This document shows, piece after piece, positions 30,001-36,000 of a stretch of DNA of 39,873 nt (position 1 is its first letter; each line of letters opens with the position of its first letter). The position numbers are program-made. This DNA is from a virus: UHGV virus genome UHGV-0062059. One strand, given 5' to 3'.

Positions 30001-33000
30001 ATGAAAACTCAATTGATGGGAGAGCGCATTCGCGCTCGGAGAAAAGAACTCAAGATCAGGCAGGCCGCACTTGGAAAGATGGTCGGCGTGTCTAATGTTG
30101 CCATATCTCAGTGGGAACGCTCTGAGACAGAGCCAAATGGAGAGAATCTTCTCGCCCTGGCTAATGCGTTGAAGTGTTCCCCTGACTATCTGATGAAAGG
30201 AGAGGAAAGTCTTTCAAACATTGCCTATCACAGTAGGCATGATCCAAGAGGGTCATACCCTCTGATTAGCTGGGTGAGCGCAGGATGCTGGATGGAAGCT
30301 GTAGAACCATATCATAAGCGTGCAATAGATAACTGGTACGATACAACCGTAGACTGTTCAGAAGATTCGTTTTGGTTGGACGTGAAGGGAGACTCAATGA
30401 CGGCTCCGGCCGGTCTCAGTATCCCTGAAGGAATGATAATACTCGTCGATCCTGAAGTAGAGCCGCGTAACGGGAAACTGGTAGTTGCAAAGCTCGAAGG
30501 AGAAAACGAGGCAACTTTCAAGAAGTTAGTTATTGATGCAGGCAGGAAGTTTCTAAAACCACTTAACCCACAATATCCGATGATCGAGATCAACGGAAAC
30601 TGCAAAATCATCGGCGTAGTTGTCGATGCAAAACTAGCAAACCTTCCATAAGGGGGGCATTCGCCCCTTTTTTTTATTTCCTTTAAAAATCAAAGCCAAA
30701 CTTAAGTTACGAAAGAAAATTTAAGTTTTCTTCAAAAATACTCTTGACCATTAATTAAAGAGATCTTAAATTTAAGCCATCAGCAGGACGCTGGTAGCCA
30801 AACGGAACAGATTGGCAGGCTCTTTAACATTGATGGGATTGTCCCGCCGAAATGCGGGAACCAAAGAGTAGTTGGCTTTGGGGTGACGTGAAGTGCAGCT
30901 GCACGACGGCAACTGGAAGATAAGCACCCGGCGCGTCACCGCCAAAGTCAATCATCGGAGGTCAACATGACAGTAGTCATTACATATCTGGCTGACGATA
31001 ACGCCAGAAATCGCCGCAGAGCACGCAGACAGGCTCAACGTGAACAGGCAATGCAAGAGCAGCGACTGGCGCGAAAAATTGCGCTAAAGCTCTCTGGTTG
31101 CGTCAGAGCAGATAAAGCAGCATCACTCGGAAGCCTTCGCTGTAAGAAAGCAGAAGAAGTCGAGCATAAACAGAACCGTATTTACTACCGCAAGCCACGC
31201 AGTGAAATGGGTGTGACTTGTGTTGGTCGCCAGAAAATAAAATTAGGCAGCAAACCACTTATTTGAGAGGAATTAATATGTCATCAATCCGCTTAACTAC
31301 GAGAATGAAAGAGGAAATCGCTCGTAACGCTTTAATTAAGTCTGGGGTTTTCACTGAACTTGAAGAAGTAACAAAGTTAAAGAACCAGCTTGCACTTGAC
31401 GCCAGAGTTATTGCGTTTGGCGGTAAAAAGAAAACTGAGGAAGTGGATCAGTTATCATCCAAGTTGGTAGCTATAAGTGAAGAACTTGAAAAGATGGGAT
31501 GTTCATTTTACTCATACGATGTTAGTTCTACTTCAATTTATCTGACTGTATCTGGCAGAAGGGTTGGATGGCATTCATATGGGAAAGACGGCAACGGCGA
31601 AGATATATTGCTCCCTACTCCGACCAAAGATAAATGCATGTTTAGCGCAGAACACGAAATAACAAAAAGGTTTGATGAAATCTGCGCATTGCAACAAAAA
31701 CTTGAAGCCAAGAAAAAGGATATCGAATCAAATGTATGGGCTGCTTTGAACTCAGTCACAACAGTTAAGCGACTTATTGAAGTTTGGCCTGAAAGCAAAG
31801 AATTGCTACCAAAAGAAGCAGATAAAGCAAGTACAGCACTTCCTGCTTTACGGGTAGAAGATTTGAATAAGATGATTGGACTTCCTTCCGAGGCCGCATA
31901 GTCGGCCTTTATTTTTGGCACTAACAACAGAATAAACACTGCACTGTGTATTCATTCCAACGAGTGAATACACGGAGCAATGTCGCTCGTAACTAAACAG
32001 GAGCCGACTTGTTCTGATTATTGGAAATCTTCTTTGCCCTCCAGTGTGAGGGCCTTTTTATATGCATACCAATAACGCTTCACTCGAGGCGTTTTTCGTT
32101 ATGTATAAATAAGGAGCACACCATGCAATATGCCATTGCAGGGTGGCCTGTTGCTGGCTGCCCTTCCGAATCTTTACTTGAACGAATCACCAGTAAATTA
32201 CGTGACGGATGGAAAAGAGTTGAGGTCTTATTATGCGCAATGAAATAGCCATTAATCACCAGATGCTTCGTGCTGCACAGAACAAAGCAGTAATAGCCAG
32301 ATTTATTGGTGATTCAAAAATGTGGCTTGAAGCAAATAAAGCGATGAAATCAGCTATCAACCTTCCGTGGTATCGCAGGAAATGAGTTTTACAGATAACT
32401 GGTCAGACGAAGAATTCATTCGTCAGATGAACAAAATGCTCAATCAGCACAAAGAACAGGAGAAAGATGATGATTCTGACTCTGAATGATAAGCGTGAAA
32501 TATCGCAAATAATCGCAAGTTTTACTGATGAAGATTACGAGCGAATCAACAGTGAAGTTGTTCGCCTCTGCAAACGTTGCGACCCAATAAGCGAAATGCT
32601 TCGCTCATATAAACCAGATGAACACACTAAGGACGCTATCGACTGGCTGGAAGATGATGATTGTAACTATCAGGAAAAAGCCGCTGAATGGTTCTGGGAT
32701 GCAATAACCGAAAGAGTTAAGGCTGAATATGCCTTCGCAATATTCAAACGCAGACACATTTATGGAGAAGCAGCATGAGCAATATCGTTGAATTCGTTAA
32801 ACAGCAGGAGCAGTTATTCTGCGGAGCATTGACTGAACAGACGGTGACATGGGCTAAGGAAAGCCAGTTTGCAATTCAGTATTTCCAGAAAAATGATTAC
32901 CTGGCTAAAACAGCACTGGCAAATCCAACCAGCGCACAGAACGCCATCATCAATGTTGCGGCGATCGGCATCACCTTAAACCCTGCAAGCAAACTGGCTT

Positions 33001-36000
33001 ATCTGGTTCCGCGCGATGGCATGGTTTGCCTTGATATCAGCTATATGGGATTGCTCCATATTGCAATGGAGTCTGGTGTTATCTCATGGGGTCAGGCAAA
33101 ACTTGTTCATGCTAACGATACCTATGAGTCAAACGGGCTTGATAAAGCACCAACCCATAAATACAACGCCTTCGGTGATCGTGGTGATATCGTTGGCGTT
33201 TACTGCACAGTTAAGACGCCAGCAGGTGATTATCTAACGGAAGAGATGAGTCTGGCTGAAATTGAGGCTGTAAGGAAAACAAGCAAGGCAGCATTCAGCG
33301 ATAAAGGACCATGGGTAAATCACTGGAATGAGATGGCGCGAAAGACGGTCGTAAAGCGTGCAAGCAAGTATTGGCCTAAGGCATCACGTCTTGATAGTGC
33401 TATTCACGTACTAAACGAAGAAGAAGGTGTGTGGACTGAACCAGTTATGCCGCATAAATCAGAGGAAGATATCCGCGAAGATGAACGGAAACGCCAGCAG
33501 GAAATAACGGAAAAAGCACAACTTCTTTGTGATGAAATGGCTCAGGCTGAAAACATGGATGATTTGAAGAGATATTTTGCAGAAGCATATCGCCTGACAT
33601 CTGGAATGAAATTGCAGCAGAACGTACAAGCCATTTACATAGAATGCAAAGCGAAACTGGAGGTTGCCAGTGAGCAAACTATATGAAATTGCCAATGAAT
33701 ACGCAAAATTGATGGATTCAGATTTAGAACCAGAGATGATTGCTGACACAATAGAAGGCATGGAAGGAGAATTTACCGATAAAATAGAACAACTTCTTTC
33801 CGTCATTAAAAATGAATCTGGTTATGCCGAACGCCTCAAGGAAGAGGCAAAGTCACTGAATGAGCGAGCCGCAGTAATTCAAAATAAGATTGACAGCATC
33901 AAATCATATATAGCGTCATCGCTTGAAATGGTTGGCAAGAAAAATATTCGAGCAGGTATTCACCAGGTAACAATCCGCAAACCGTCAGAAATTGTAGAAA
34001 TAATCGACTCAAGCGCCCTTCCTCCTGAATACGTTGAGTTTGAAACGACAATTAAAGCCGACAAACTGGCAATCAAGCACCAACTAAAAGCAGGAATAAA
34101 TATTCCCGGTGCTCAACTCAAGGTTGGGAAACCTTCACTTCTTATCAAATAACGGTATCGCCTATGAAAAAGACTCCATGGGAGAAATGGGAAGTCGATT
34201 TCTTGCGCGAAGTATCGGCGACAATGCCAGTTGAAGTTATTGCTGAAAAACTGGAAAGGACTGAAAAAGCAGTTATGGCGAAAGCAACAAGGATTGGCGC
34301 TGACATTGTTAGCCGACTTCGTGGAAGACGCTGGACAAGAGCAGAAGTATCACTTTTCGGTAAGTTCTCCGCAGAAGAAATAGCAATTGCAACCTGCCGC
34401 TCAATTTATTCAGTAAGGGCTATGCGATACAAGCTAAAAAAACTCGATGAAGAAAGAGCAGGCATACGAATAAATTAACATGGAATAATTAACAATGAAG
34501 CTAAACATCGACCTCGGCAAATACGTTATCACCGGAACCAAACACGATCTGATTCTTAGCGAAAGAGGAATTATCAAAGAAGGCGAGAATGCAGGGAAAG
34601 AAACACTAAGTCGTATCGGTTATTACAGCAAGTTTGAGCATCTGGTTAAAGAGTTATGCAACCGTGAAATCCTGTTATCTCAGGCGCAGACGCTACAGGA
34701 TATTCAGCAGCATATCGAGACTTTAGGTGTGTCACTTAGCATGGCTATTGACCAGTTCGTTGAGAGTAAATCATGAGAGGACTTGCATACAATCCCGGCA
34801 TTCTTCCGGCAGAAATGATTATTCGCCAACGCGTAAAGCCAATGCCATCGAGAGAGGAATTACTTAAGCAAAACTCGTTTCCATCAGTGAATCAAAACAA
34901 ATATCTGAATGCGATGTGGCGGAGTGGGAAGAAATGAAACAAATGTCACTAATTGAGATGGATGGTTTTCTGAAAGGTAAATGCATCCCACGAGATTTAA
35001 AGGTTAACGAAACAAACGCTGAATATCTGGTGCGTAAATTTGCTGAAGCGGAGGCCAAGATTTCGGCTCTGTCCGAAGACCACCAGAAAGCGATTGAGTC
35101 AATTAAGCAGGCTGATGCAGCTGTTAAGTTGGCACACGAGAAGTTTTCGGCGCTGGCGGCGGAGAATGCGGCAATGCATGAAGCTATTGAAGCCGTTCGG
35201 AGTGTTGCGGATAACTCCAGTGGAATTGCCGGATGGCATTTGAATGGCGATATCGCTACATGGGAAGAGATTCTTCCTGAAATTAACGATATCGAAACCC
35301 AAGCCACCGACGCTTTCCTGGCTGAAATTGAACGCAAAGCAATCCGCAAGTTCATTAACAGCATTGAACACATCCTGCGTGACAAGTTGTCACCGTATGA
35401 CACCGAAGAGATGCTTGAGGCTATGCGTATTTTTCTGGAAGAACAGGGCGGTGAGCAAAAATGACAATCACAAAACAACGAGTAGGAAAAATCATATATC
35501 GCCATGAAATGGGACTGAACAGCGATGTCACTGCCGAAGAGGTTTATGACCTGGCTGTACTGGCGCTGAATTTATCAAATATCGCAAACCTGAAGCGATA
35601 CGAGCTTGATATGGATGGTTGTGACTCGTGCGGTCAGGATTGTGGCGCTGACATGACTGAAGATTCTGATGGCGATTATGTCCTGTTTGATGACGTGGTT
35701 AAGTTGTTTGAGCTTGATACATTCGAAAGCCCAGCAAAGGAGGCAACCAGTGATCAAAATTAACTATCATGCACTGCGTGAAGCGGCAGAGAAAGCCGGT
35801 GAAGATAAGTGGCAGGCTAAAAAAATAAATGGTGATTTTTTCGTTATTCGTCACGGTAGTTATACAAGACAGCATGGCTACACATCGTATCAACCCATTG
35901 CGGAGATTGATTGTAAGCCAGTCCGGGATTTTGTTGCCAAGGCTAATCCGGCTACCGTGCTTGCACTGCTGGATGAACGGGAAAGAAACCAGCAATACAT

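What the first reader, a model, noticed from the sequence alone, without database searches (positions are those of the whole stretch)
32467..34152. RecT recombinase with no partner exonuclease, flanked by a 103-aa unknown and a Gp157/Gam-like protein
SSAP genes usually pair with an exonuclease (RecE or lambda Exo type). None is visible in the operon. The 162-aa downstream protein may act as a nuclease inhibitor or accessory factor.
Basis: inference. Interest (0 to 1): 0.4.

Follow-up and report, generated by a model that had tools for sequence, protein, structure and literature searches.

The report
Known nuclease-less RecT–Gp157 phage recombination module
This is an ordinary, already catalogued prophage recombination cassette in which the DNA-annealing protein RecT is paired with a Mu-Gam-like end-binding protein (Gp157) instead of an exonuclease, so the missing nuclease is a built-in design and not an anomaly.

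Summary
The 103-aa ORF, RecT and Gp157 sit at the stated coordinates, tightly packed in the early-left operon of a CUS-3/P22-like E. coli prophage. No exonuclease was found anywhere in the 39.9-kb window.

It is not unusual. The same block is 97-100% identical in phages HK140, mEpX1, Kapi1 and Gally, and covers at least 80% of the query in 265 of 5,426 complete E. coli genomes. Zheng et al. 2025 (PMC12315714) list HK140 as "SAP-4, no nuclease, MuGam", and report that 84 of 246 lambdoid Rec modules lack a nuclease. Gally's recT-gam-abc1 trio has already been deleted experimentally.

Three things go beyond that literature:
- **RecT tail.** Exo-partnered sister RecTs (phi80, ENT47670) carry a C-terminal domain 72-74% identical to the lambda Red-beta domain crystallised with lambda Exo. 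This RecT instead has an unrelated 88-aa tail, shared by all 16 Gp157-partnered RecTs.
- **103-aa protein.** Its family is always the first gene of a Rec module. In RecT-Gp157 modules it alternates with lambda Gam and phi80 GamL, so it is a candidate host-nuclease inhibitor. It shows no sequence homology to either.
- **Downstream 104-aa gene.** It falls in the same PHROG family (phrog_323) as P22 Abc1 and Mu gp9.

The parts
32382..32489 (+). 35-aa acidic ORF (pI 4.3) lying between kil and the 103-aa gene, the position arf holds in P22. It overlaps the next gene by 20 nt.
   Evidence: Present in 75 of 80 closely related IMG/VR loci. It matches phrog_17766 (E 7.6e-16) and the N-terminus of phrog_2123 'recombinase'. 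It shares only a (W/F)SDEEFI motif with P22 Arf (BLASTP E 0.005), and Arf belongs to a different PHROG, phrog_2445. Its role is unproven.
32470..32778 (+). p103: a 102/103-aa acidic (pI 4.7), all-helical protein in the 'Gam slot', the first gene of the Rec module. It is a candidate host-nuclease (RecBCD) inhibitor and belongs to a family of its own.
32775..33419 (+). RecT N-terminal annealing core (aa 1-215).
   Evidence: PF03837 matches aa 31-217 at E 2.9e-32. The core is 59% identical to the phi80 'rec' SSAP over 227 aa and 76-98% identical to other Gp157-partnered RecTs.
33420..33686 (+). RecT C-terminal domain (aa 216-303). It is specific to Gp157-partnered RecTs and stands where the lambda Red-beta-type Exo/SSB-binding domain sits in other RecTs.
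   Evidence: The tail is 47-77% identical among 16 Gp157-partnered RecTs, with the motif GMKLQQNVQAIY-ECK. It is only 16% identical to Exo-partnered phi80, ENT47670 and Midgardsormr38 RecTs, whose cores are 49-61% identical. The Exo-partnered tails are 51-74% identical to lambda Bet aa 180-255, whereas this tail shows no similarity to Bet (E above 1). dN/dS is about 0.13 in the one comparison where it could be measured.
33670..34152 (+). Gp157 (160 aa): a remote Mu-Gam-like protein with a coiled coil and a small beta domain. It sits in the slot immediately downstream of the SSAP, where Exo sits in sister modules.
   Evidence: PF05565 E 2.4e-37 and phrog_253. The AF2 model has pLDDT 81.5, with helix 21-87 and a beta domain at 92-160. 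No nuclease fold was found and there is no PD-(D/E)xK-type conserved motif. Three of 12 family members also hit PF07352 Phage_Mu_Gam, best E 0.0011. hhalign to Mu Gam is colinear but weak. Zheng et al. class the HK140 protein as MuGam. Distant homologues lie next to Rad52-like SSAPs.
34164..34478 (+). p104: a basic (pI 10) protein with repeated HTH-like units, belonging to the P22 Abc1 / Mu gp9 family (phrog_323). It is the last conserved gene of the module.
   Evidence: phrog_323 E 2.6e-19. P22 Abc1 (1.3e-23) and Mu gp9 (5.2e-29) fall in the same PHROG. BLASTP to Mu gp9 gives E 8e-5 and to P22 Abc1 gives nothing. It is present in 77 of 80 related loci. In L100 the same slot holds a close Abc1 homologue (E 3e-28). 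The Gally authors call it 'abc1'.

Best explanation
This is an intact lambdoid 'Rec module' of the HK140/Gally type. It belongs to the P22 functional class: a strand-annealing protein plus anti-RecBCD function, with no phage nuclease and no SSB.

**RecT.** RecT anneals complementary single strands. This activity is established for the family and is assigned here by homology.

**RecT's tail.** Its partner is not an exonuclease. The C-terminal domain that binds lambda Exo in Red-beta-type proteins has been replaced. In its place is a different 88-aa domain, found only in RecTs that are followed by Gp157.

**Gp157.** Gp157 is a remote Mu-Gam relative with a coiled coil. It is inferred to bind double-strand ends, to keep RecBCD off them, and probably to hand the end to RecT through that tail.

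**The 103-aa protein.** The acidic helical protein upstream sits in the lambda gam / phi80 gamL slot. It is inferred to be a further, sequence-unrelated inhibitor or modulator of a host nuclease.

**The 104-aa protein.** This Abc1/Mu-gp9-like protein is an accessory of unknown action.

**Source of single-stranded DNA.** RecT would get its substrate from the host, either from host exonucleases/helicases such as RecJ/RecQ or from replication forks. This step is inferred and was not tested.
For: **Identity of the parts.**

**The module is already known.**
- It is 97-98% identical to Kapi1, HK140, mEpX1 and Gally.
- It covers at least 80% of the query in 265 of 5,426 complete E. coli genomes.
- It is published as a nuclease-less SAP-4 + MuGam module.
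- The Gally authors call it a 'recombination module' and deleted it as recT-gam-abc1.

**It is a conserved unit.** The order orf35-p103-RecT-Gp157-p104 is kept in 75-79 of 80 related loci while the flanks vary.

**No exonuclease is present.**

**The RecT tail tracks its partner.**
- Exo-partnered RecTs with 49-61% identical cores have tails 72-74% identical to the lambda Bet C-terminal domain.
- That Bet domain was crystallised bound to lambda Exo (PMC6393309, listed).
- The window's tail is unrelated to Bet and is conserved in all 16 Gp157-partnered RecTs.

**Gp157 accompanies SSAPs of several families.** These are RecT here, Rad52-like proteins in L108 and Proteus-type loci, and Erf and Sak4 in Firmicutes.

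**Link between Gp157 and Mu Gam.** See and PMC12315714.

**The Gam slot is interchangeable.** Across 17 RecT-Gp157 loci the slot holds p103 (7), GamL (5), lambda Gam (4) or another protein (1).

**The genes are under constraint.** Synonymous sites are saturated while dN is 0.14-0.61.

**Chi sites.** The window has none, as is typical of phages that carry RecBCD inhibitors. About one is expected by chance, so this is weak support.
Against: - No biochemical activity of Gp157, p103 or p104 has been shown for this module.
- The sequence link between Gp157 and Mu Gam is weak. hhalign probability is about 1.4%, the window protein itself does not hit PF07352, and no Mu Gam hit was named in the fold searches.
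- The covariation of the RecT tail with Gp157 could reflect simple linkage, because the tail-coding DNA abuts the gp157 gene. It need not mean physical contact.
- Gally lacking recT-gam-abc1 still yields virions that can lysogenise. The module is therefore dispensable, at least in a Rec+ host.
Confidence: 0.8

Rival explanations
1. P22-style hijacking. One of the small proteins (p103 or p104) does not simply inhibit RecBCD. Instead it converts RecBCD into the resecting nuclease that feeds RecT, as Abc2 does for Erf. On this view the 'missing' exonuclease is a reprogrammed RecBCD.
For: The module falls in the same functional class as P22. p104 is in the same PHROG as P22 Abc1. The gene order parallels arf-erf-abc1-abc2. 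The window has no Chi sites.
Against: No Abc2 homologue was found. The function of Abc1 itself is unknown. p103 alternates with lambda Gam and GamL, which block RecBCD and do not reprogram it. A Mu-Gam-like end binder would keep RecBCD off DNA ends.
Confidence: 0.15
2. Gp157 is itself a cryptic, novel exonuclease. The module would then be a conventional SSAP + exonuclease pair.
For: Gp157 sits exactly where Exo sits in sister modules. Foldseek gives weak matches of the model to PD-(D/E)XK/exonuclease-annotated phage proteins, at E 0.009 to 1.1.
Confidence: 0.04
3. The module is a decayed remnant that has lost its exonuclease gene, leaving RecT orphaned and non-functional.
For: Sister RecTs (phi80, ENT47670, Midgardsormr38) do have an Exo gene downstream.
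Against: All ORFs are intact, overlapping and under purifying selection. The same arrangement is conserved from E. coli to Citrobacter, Enterobacter, Erwinia and Lonsdalea at 57-79% protein identity. It occurs in plaque-forming phages such as HK140, mEpX1 and Kapi1. RecT has exchanged its Exo-binding tail for a different conserved one and has not merely lost its neighbour.
Confidence: 0.03
4. Gp157 has nothing to do with recombination. It would be a superinfection-exclusion or 'phage resistance' protein, the origin of the Pfam name and of the 'Resistance protein' labels, that merely hitch-hikes next to recT.
For: Relatives are annotated 'resistance protein'. A paper on a cryptic S. thermophilus prophage connects the Gp157 family with phage immunity. 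I saw only its title and the start of its abstract (PMC6356513).
Against: Gp157 is tightly adjacent to, and shares an operon with, SSAPs of unrelated families across Proteobacteria, Bacteroidia and Firmicutes. Its start overlaps the RecT stop by 17 nt. The RecT tail covaries with its presence. The family links to Mu Gam.
Confidence: 0.06

Closest known systems
Rec module of phages HK140 / mEpX1 / Kapi1 / Gally (SAP-4 + MuGam, no nuclease; Zheng et al. 2025, PMC12315714; Misson et al. 2023, PMC9928086)
   Same: The genes and their order are the same, at 97-98% nucleotide identity across 32.4-34.5 kb of the window. It has been published as nuclease-less. In Gally it is named recT-gam-abc1 and has been deleted.
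   Different: There is essentially no difference. The flanks differ mosaically: Nmad5, DUF5405 and the ea genes come and go. In the text I could read, the literature does not treat the 103-aa gene as a Rec-module member.
Lambda Red (gam-bet-exo) and phi80 gamL-rec-exo
   Same: The module occupies the same place in the pL operon, after cIII-kil. It has the same three-slot layout of a small acidic protein, then an SSAP, then a partner. The RecT core is 59% identical to phi80 rec.
   Different: The third slot holds Gp157 instead of a YqaJ-type exonuclease. RecT lacks the Red-beta-type Exo-binding C-terminal domain that phi80 and ENT47670 RecTs retain. The first-slot protein is not homologous to Gam or GamL.
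P22 arf-erf-abc1-abc2
   Same: Both are nuclease-less modules that rely on host functions. Both have a small acidic ORF before the SSAP and an Abc1-family (phrog_323) gene after it.
   Different: The SSAP is RecT, not Erf. There is no Abc2. Gp157 and p103 have no P22 counterpart, and the Gally annotators note that the Mu-Gam-like gene is 'absent in P22'.
Phage Mu gp9-Gam
   Same: Both pair a phrog_323 HTH protein with a Gam-like end protector. In Mu, gp9 lies directly upstream of gam. Mu Gam binds DNA ends as a dimer and blocks RecBCD.
   Different: The order is reversed here, with Gp157 before p104. Gp157 is only a remote relative of Mu Gam. Mu has no SSAP next to gam.

Membership tests
RecT family SSAP (PF03837) | Match to the RecT annealing-core profile above the curated threshold | tested here: met
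   112.3 bits against a cutoff of 24, E 2.9e-32, over aa 31-217. phrog_148 E 3e-92. The solved Listeria RecT 7ub2 matches at E 0.0046.
Red-beta/RecT proteins that work with a cognate exonuclease | A C-terminal domain homologous to the Red-beta domain that binds lambda Exo | tested here: not met
   The window's tail compared with lambda Bet gives no hit below E 1. The phi80, ENT47670 and L201 tails are 74%, 72% and 51% identical to Bet 180-255.
SSAP + exonuclease pair (lambda Exo/YqaJ PF09588, RecE/DUF3799 PF12684) | An exonuclease gene of one of these families adjacent to the SSAP or elsewhere in the prophage | tested here: not met
   Pfam and PHROG scans of the operon and nin-region ORFs found none. 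tblastn of nine reference nucleases against the whole window gave a best E of 0.045 over 21 aa.
Siphovirus Gp157 (PF05565) | Full-length match to the family profile above threshold | tested here: met
   128.9 bits against a cutoff of 28.6, covering profile positions 1-162 of 162.
Mu Gam / Ku-like end-binding proteins (PF07352) | Sequence homology to Mu Gam | tested here: inconclusive
   The window protein has no PF07352 hit at E 0.1 or below. Three of 12 divergent family members do hit it, best E 0.0011. hhalign gives a colinear C-terminal alignment, but probability is 1.4% and E is 0.04. PHROGs and Zheng et al. both label the protein Mu-Gam-like.
Mu Gam / Ku-like end-binding proteins (PF07352) | Dimeric binding of dsDNA ends and protection from RecBCD | not testable with these tools
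   Only a monomer model was made, showing a coiled coil plus a beta domain. No solved Mu Gam or Gp157 structure was found by sequence.
Lambda Gam (PF06064) / phi80 GamL (PF28165) RecBCD inhibitors, tested for p103 | Sequence homology, including the N-terminal MNAY..DR.E..W helix shared by Gam and GamL | tested here: not met
   p103 has no Pfam hit. hhalign of A3 against lambda Gam gives probability 3.4% and against the GamL profile 0.1%. GamL against lambda Gam gives 77%, which serves as a positive control.
Lambda Gam (PF06064) / phi80 GamL (PF28165) RecBCD inhibitors, tested for p103 | Gam-like helical fold | tested here: inconclusive
Lambda Gam (PF06064) / phi80 GamL (PF28165) RecBCD inhibitors, tested for p103 | Position as the first gene of the Rec module, and interchangeability with Gam or GamL | tested here: met
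   Phage Dewey and 9 of 17 RecT-Gp157 loci carry Gam or GamL exactly where p103 lies. p103-RecT-Exo trios mirror gam-bet-exo.
P22 Abc1 family (phrog_323), tested for p104 | Match to the same profile family as P22 Abc1 | tested here: met
   p104 scores 2.6e-19, P22 Abc1 1.3e-23 and Mu gp9 5.2e-29, all to phrog_323. Pairwise BLASTP of p104 against Abc1 finds nothing, and against Mu gp9 gives E 8e-5.
P22 Abc2 (RecBCD modifier) | Presence of an Abc2 homologue | tested here: not met
   The 93-aa ORF compared with Abc2 gives no alignment. No window ORF falls in phrog_656, and tblastn finds nothing.
P22-class Rec module of Zheng et al. 2025 (anti-RecBCD + SAP, no nuclease, no SSB) | SAP present, MuGam-type gene present, no nuclease and no SSB in the contiguous module | tested here: met
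   See for gene content. No SSB family hit appears among the operon ORFs. HK140, with the same module, is so classified.

The most novel reading that the evidence does not exclude
The module works by an exonuclease-independent route for loading RecT at DNA ends. This reading has two parts.

1. Gp157 is not merely 'the anti-RecBCD protein'. It is RecT's physical partner, docking on the dedicated 88-aa RecT tail that replaces the Exo-binding domain.
2. The 103-aa family is a previously unrecognised type of Gam-slot host-nuclease inhibitor, unrelated in sequence to Gam and GamL. It also serves the p103-RecT-Exo and p103-RecE modules. In the text I could read, the 2025 survey does not mention the 103-aa gene, and its Table 1 lists the SEN22-type class, which carries p103, as lacking an anti-RecBCD gene.
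Probability: 0.3. Interest if true: 0.55.

Novelty: already known. Interest (0 to 1): 0.3.

Why it matters
As a scan finding it matters little. A RecT without a phage exonuclease is a common, published configuration of lambdoid Rec modules.

The follow-up gives three testable leads for recombineering and for phage-host conflict:
- A RecT whose C-terminal domain is built for a Gam-like partner instead of Exo.
- A widespread ~100-aa family that occupies the lambda-gam position in at least three module types. If it inhibits RecBCD, it would move the SEN22-type class, and probably the ENT47670-type p103-RecT-Exo modules, out of the 'no anti-RecBCD' category.
- A recurrent pairing of Abc1/Mu-gp9-like HTH proteins with Gam-like proteins.

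End-binding proteins of this kind are also reported to make phages sensitive to Gabija defence (PMC12407980).

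Tried and rejected
- **Sequence search of p103 and Gp157 against PDB chains.** Single sequences and profiles returned only coiled-coil or generic noise.
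- **Foldseek of the Gp157 model against BFVD.** Only Gp157-family proteins were significant, and no hit was named Mu Gam. Weak PD-(D/E)XK hits remain unexplained.
- **p103 as a lambda Gam or GamL homologue.** Rejected at the sequence level. The single-sequence hhalign to GamL looked colinear, with E 0.008, but it vanished with a GamL profile.
- **p104 as a direct P22 Abc1 homologue.** Pairwise BLAST finds nothing. Only family-level support through phrog_323 remains.
- **The 93-aa DUF5405 ORF as Abc2.** Rejected.
- **orf35 as Arf.** It belongs to a different PHROG and shares only a short motif.
- **dN/dS.** Synonymous sites were saturated in nearly all comparisons, so only a qualitative statement is possible.
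- **Supplementary tables of Zheng et al.** They were not available as text. I could not check how the 103-aa gene, ENT47670 or SEN22 were scored gene by gene.
- **Chi count.** Zero were found against about one expected. This is consistent with the model but not discriminating.

Full report
**Setting**

The window is almost an entire P22-like (Lederbergvirus-type) E. coli prophage.
- It has an endosialidase tailspike and P22-type morphogenesis genes on the minus strand, then a nin region and O/DnaB replication genes.
- cro/cI lie at about 29.7-30.7 kb.
- A plus-strand early-left operon runs from an N-like gene (30967) to xis/int at the right end.
- The best matches for the first 25 kb are vB_EcoP-720R6, phiv205-1 and CUS-3.

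[quoted passage not shown] This is the canonical place of lambdoid recombination ('Rec') modules.

**Checking the observation**

All three ORFs exist as described.
- The middle one is a RecT-family annealing protein: PF03837 E 2.9e-32 and phrog_148 E 3e-92.
- The downstream one is a full-length Siphovirus Gp157 protein: PF05565 E 2.4e-37. PHROGs labels it 'Mu Gam-like end protection'. Its real start is probably GTG 33670, giving 160 aa as in all homologues.
- The upstream 103-aa ORF has no Pfam family and belongs to phrog_3486, function unknown. It is 102 aa from the second Met.

No exonuclease was found.
- Profile scans of the other early-left ORFs gave Nmad5, an HTH protein, DUF5405, DUF2737-like, Ead/Ea22, DUF551 and Lar-like proteins.
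- Scans of the nin region gave NinB, KilAC, YbcO, RusA and Q.
- Nine reference nucleases of the lambda Exo/YqaJ and RecE/DUF3799 kinds found nothing in the six-frame translation of the window. The best E was 0.045 over 21 residues.
- AlphaFold models of the two flanking proteins show no nuclease fold. One is a five-helix bundle (pLDDT 74). The other is a 67-residue helix followed by a small beta domain (pLDDT 81.5).

**It is already known**
- The 3.3-kb stretch is 97-98% identical to phages Kapi1, HK140, mEpX1, Gally, Louie and others.
- The five-gene core covers at least 80% of the query in 265 of 5,426 complete E. coli genomes, and matches in part in 1,120.
- Zheng, Casjens, Davidson, Amundsen and Smith (Genome Res 2025, PMC12315714) analysed the Rec modules of 246 enterobacterial lambdoid phages. 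[quoted passage not shown] Their P22-type class (anti-RecBCD + SAP, no nuclease, no SSB) has 46 members.
- Misson et al. (PMC9928086) call the Gally genes recT-gam-abc1 and refer to a recombination module. They replaced the three genes with a kanamycin cassette, and the resulting virions still lysogenise.

**Anatomy of the unit**

I compared 80 IMG/VR contigs that carry a Gp157 at least 96% identical to this one.
- The conserved block is a 35-aa acidic ORF, p103, RecT, Gp157 and a 104-aa basic protein (p104). These are present in 75, 76, 79, 80 and 77 loci respectively.
- A DUF2737 ORF usually follows.
- Genes on either side (N, Nmad5, DUF5405, ea genes) vary.

p104 belongs to phrog_323, together with P22 Abc1 and Mu gp9. 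Mu gp9 lies directly upstream of Mu gam. In one Enterobacter locus the same slot holds a close Abc1 homologue. P22's Abc2 is absent.

**Gp157 stands where Exo stands, and RecT is built accordingly**

Sister modules with a related RecT core are followed directly by a lambda-Exo/YqaJ nuclease. Examples are phi80 (59% identity over 227 aa), ENT47670 and Midgardsormr38. I aligned 22 RecTs.
- The N-terminal cores of the Exo-partnered phi80, ENT47670 and Midgardsormr38 proteins are 49-61% identical to the window's RecT. Their last ~85 residues are only 16% identical.
- All 16 Gp157-partnered RecTs, from E. coli to Lonsdalea, share the window's tail at 47-77% identity.
- The Exo-partnered tails are 72-74% identical (phi80, ENT47670) or 51% identical (a distant RecT) to lambda Bet residues 180-255.
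- That region of Bet is the Red-beta C-terminal domain crystallised in complex with lambda Exo, which also contacts host SSB (PMC6393309).
- The window's tail has no similarity to it.

So this RecT has not lost a neighbour. It carries a different, conserved partner domain. The simplest reading is that the tail contacts Gp157. Because the tail-coding DNA abuts gp157, linkage alone could also produce this pattern, so the contact remains an inference.

**What Gp157 is**

The family is consistently adjacent to annealing proteins of different folds.
- It accompanies RecT in Enterobacterales.
- It accompanies a Rad52/22-family protein plus an SSB-tail protein in a Piscirickettsiaceae contig.
- In Proteus, E. 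whittamii and Citrobacter it follows large phrog_2489 proteins whose C-terminal domain looks Rad52-like by eye.
- In Firmicutes it is reported next to Erf and Sak4 (PMC8093625).

Its relation to Mu Gam rests on four points.
- The PHROG label and the classification by Zheng et al..
- Three of 12 divergent members also hit PF07352, best E 0.0011.
- There is a colinear but statistically weak hhalign match of the C-terminal beta region, with probability 1.4%.
- The overall plan appears compatible. The Gp157 model has a long helix followed by a beta domain. For Mu Gam, the only basis is the mention of a leucine zipper around residue 73 (PMC12407980).

Columns conserved across divergent members form a DTLEGIEGE motif and a PGA motif, not a nuclease signature. 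I therefore file it as a Gp157-family protein that probably works like Mu Gam. Homology to Mu Gam is plausible but not demonstrated here.

**What the 103-aa protein is**

An exhaustive profile search found 52 representatives at 50% identity, nearly all about 100 aa. They share a DxDYQE motif, an RVxxEYA helix and a C-terminal E(A/V)A. Every context I could retrieve places the gene first in a Rec module.
- p103-RecT-Gp157: the window, HK140-type phages, and P0150 and P0164.
- p103-RecT-YqaJ/Exo: ENT47670, Midgardsormr38, and P0160, P0168 and P0178.
- p103-RecE/DUF3799: SEN22 and P0189.

In 17 RecT-Gp157 loci the slot holds p103 (7), phi80 GamL (5), lambda Gam (4) or another acidic 107-aa protein (1). 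Phage Dewey has a lambda-Gam-like gene there.

So membership of the Gam or GamL families is not supported. A Gam-like job, inhibiting or modulating a host nuclease, is the best positional inference. I rate it at roughly 40-50%.

One consequence follows. RecT-Gp157 modules almost always also carry a Gam-slot gene. This argues that Gp157 does more than duplicate RecBCD inhibition.

**Mechanism, with the status of each step**
- RecT anneals single strands. This is established for the family and assigned here by homology.
- No phage exonuclease is encoded. This was shown here.
- RecT lacks the Exo-binding domain and has a tail associated with Gp157. This was shown here.
- Gp157 binds and protects DNA ends, and recruits RecT. 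This is inferred.
- p103 neutralises RecBCD or another host nuclease. This is inferred from position.
- p104 is an Abc1-like accessory. The family assignment is shown, but its function is unknown even in P22.
- Single strands arise from host nucleases/helicases or at replication forks. This is inferred and untested.

For a headful-packaging P22-like phage, such a module would serve to circularise the terminally redundant genome and to form concatemers. Zheng et al. note that nearly all headful packagers have a Rec module.

**Verdict**

The feature is real and the coordinates are correct, but the anomaly is not an anomaly. Novelty is 'already known'. Interest is low to moderate (0.3). What interest it has comes from the by-products: partner-specific RecT tails, and an unrecognised Gam-slot family.

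Noticed in passing
window 25698-28091 (-): The DnaB-type replicative helicase is 797 aa, against 458 aa in Kapi1, because of an in-frame insert with LAGLIDADG/homing-endonuclease domains. This is an intein. The insert DNA is 99% identical in at least 51 phage records, mostly Stx2a-converting phages.
   Followed up: partly
window 722-3667 (-): The tailspike is an endosialidase (PF12217 E 8e-233) attached to a P22 head-binding domain. The prophage is therefore a K1-capsule-specific relative of CUS-3, phiv205-1 and vB_EcoP-720R6, about 96% identical over the late region.
   Followed up: partly
window 31278-31901 (+): A 207-aa Nmad5 protein (PF18757 E 1.2e-71, phrog_1965) lies between N and cIII. 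Only 12 of 80 related loci have it. In Dhillonvirus, point mutations in nmad5 allow escape from the Tmn defence system (PMC11846954). Its function here is unknown.
   Followed up: partly
window 34164-34478 (+); L003 2483-3326 (phage Mu); L008 4971-5255 (P22): Proteins of one PHROG (phrog_323: this 104-aa ORF, Mu gp9, P22 Abc1, SEN22 gp30) recur next to Gam-like or recombination genes in Mu, P22, SEN22 and this module. This suggests a conserved but uncharacterised accessory role.
   Followed up: partly
L109-L113, L116 (Proteus, E. whittamii, C. murliniae), genes ending at about 5977-6004: Distant Gp157 homologues directly follow 655-737-aa proteins of phrog_2489, annotated 'exonuclease'. Their C-terminal ~250 aa look like a Rad52/Sak-type annealing domain, and a 110-aa protein ending in an SSB-like acidic tail lies upstream. 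These may be the nuclease-less 'RecE-2' proteins mentioned by Zheng et al.
   Followed up: no
model m99b589b25e3d (window 33670-34152): Foldseek against BFVD gives weak matches of the Gp157 model to PD-(D/E)XK/exonuclease-annotated actinophage proteins, for example Tsukamurella phage TIN4 at E 9e-3. These could be coiled-coil noise, or a Gp157-like domain fused to nucleases.
   Followed up: no
L104 904-1227 (Lonsdalea); L097 4738-5942: In L104 a fourth, unrelated acidic 107-aa ORF fills the slot upstream of RecT. In L097 IS-type transposase ORFs lie where RecT should be, leaving Gp157 and its downstream gene intact.
   Followed up: no
window 23074-23723 (-), 25184-25642 (-), 37833-38045 (+): Other DNA-transaction genes are present: RusA resolvase, YbcO putative nuclease and NinB (Orf family) in the nin region, and a Lar-like zinc-ribbon restriction-alleviation protein near xis.
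   Followed up: no
whole window: There are no Chi sites (GCTGGTGG) on either strand in 39.9 kb, where about one is expected by chance. This agrees with the published tendency of phages that encode RecBCD inhibitors to lack Chi, but it is not significant on its own.
   Followed up: yes
upstream of p103 genes: window 32382-32489; L119 3903-4004; L201 3894-4007; L202 152-274; L207 345-458: Two unrelated kinds of 32-44-aa ORF precede and overlap the p103 gene in different lineages. One is an acidic WSD(E/D)xF(I/V)R type, as in this window. The other is a basic KAQELSREA...LLRRS type.
   Followed up: partly
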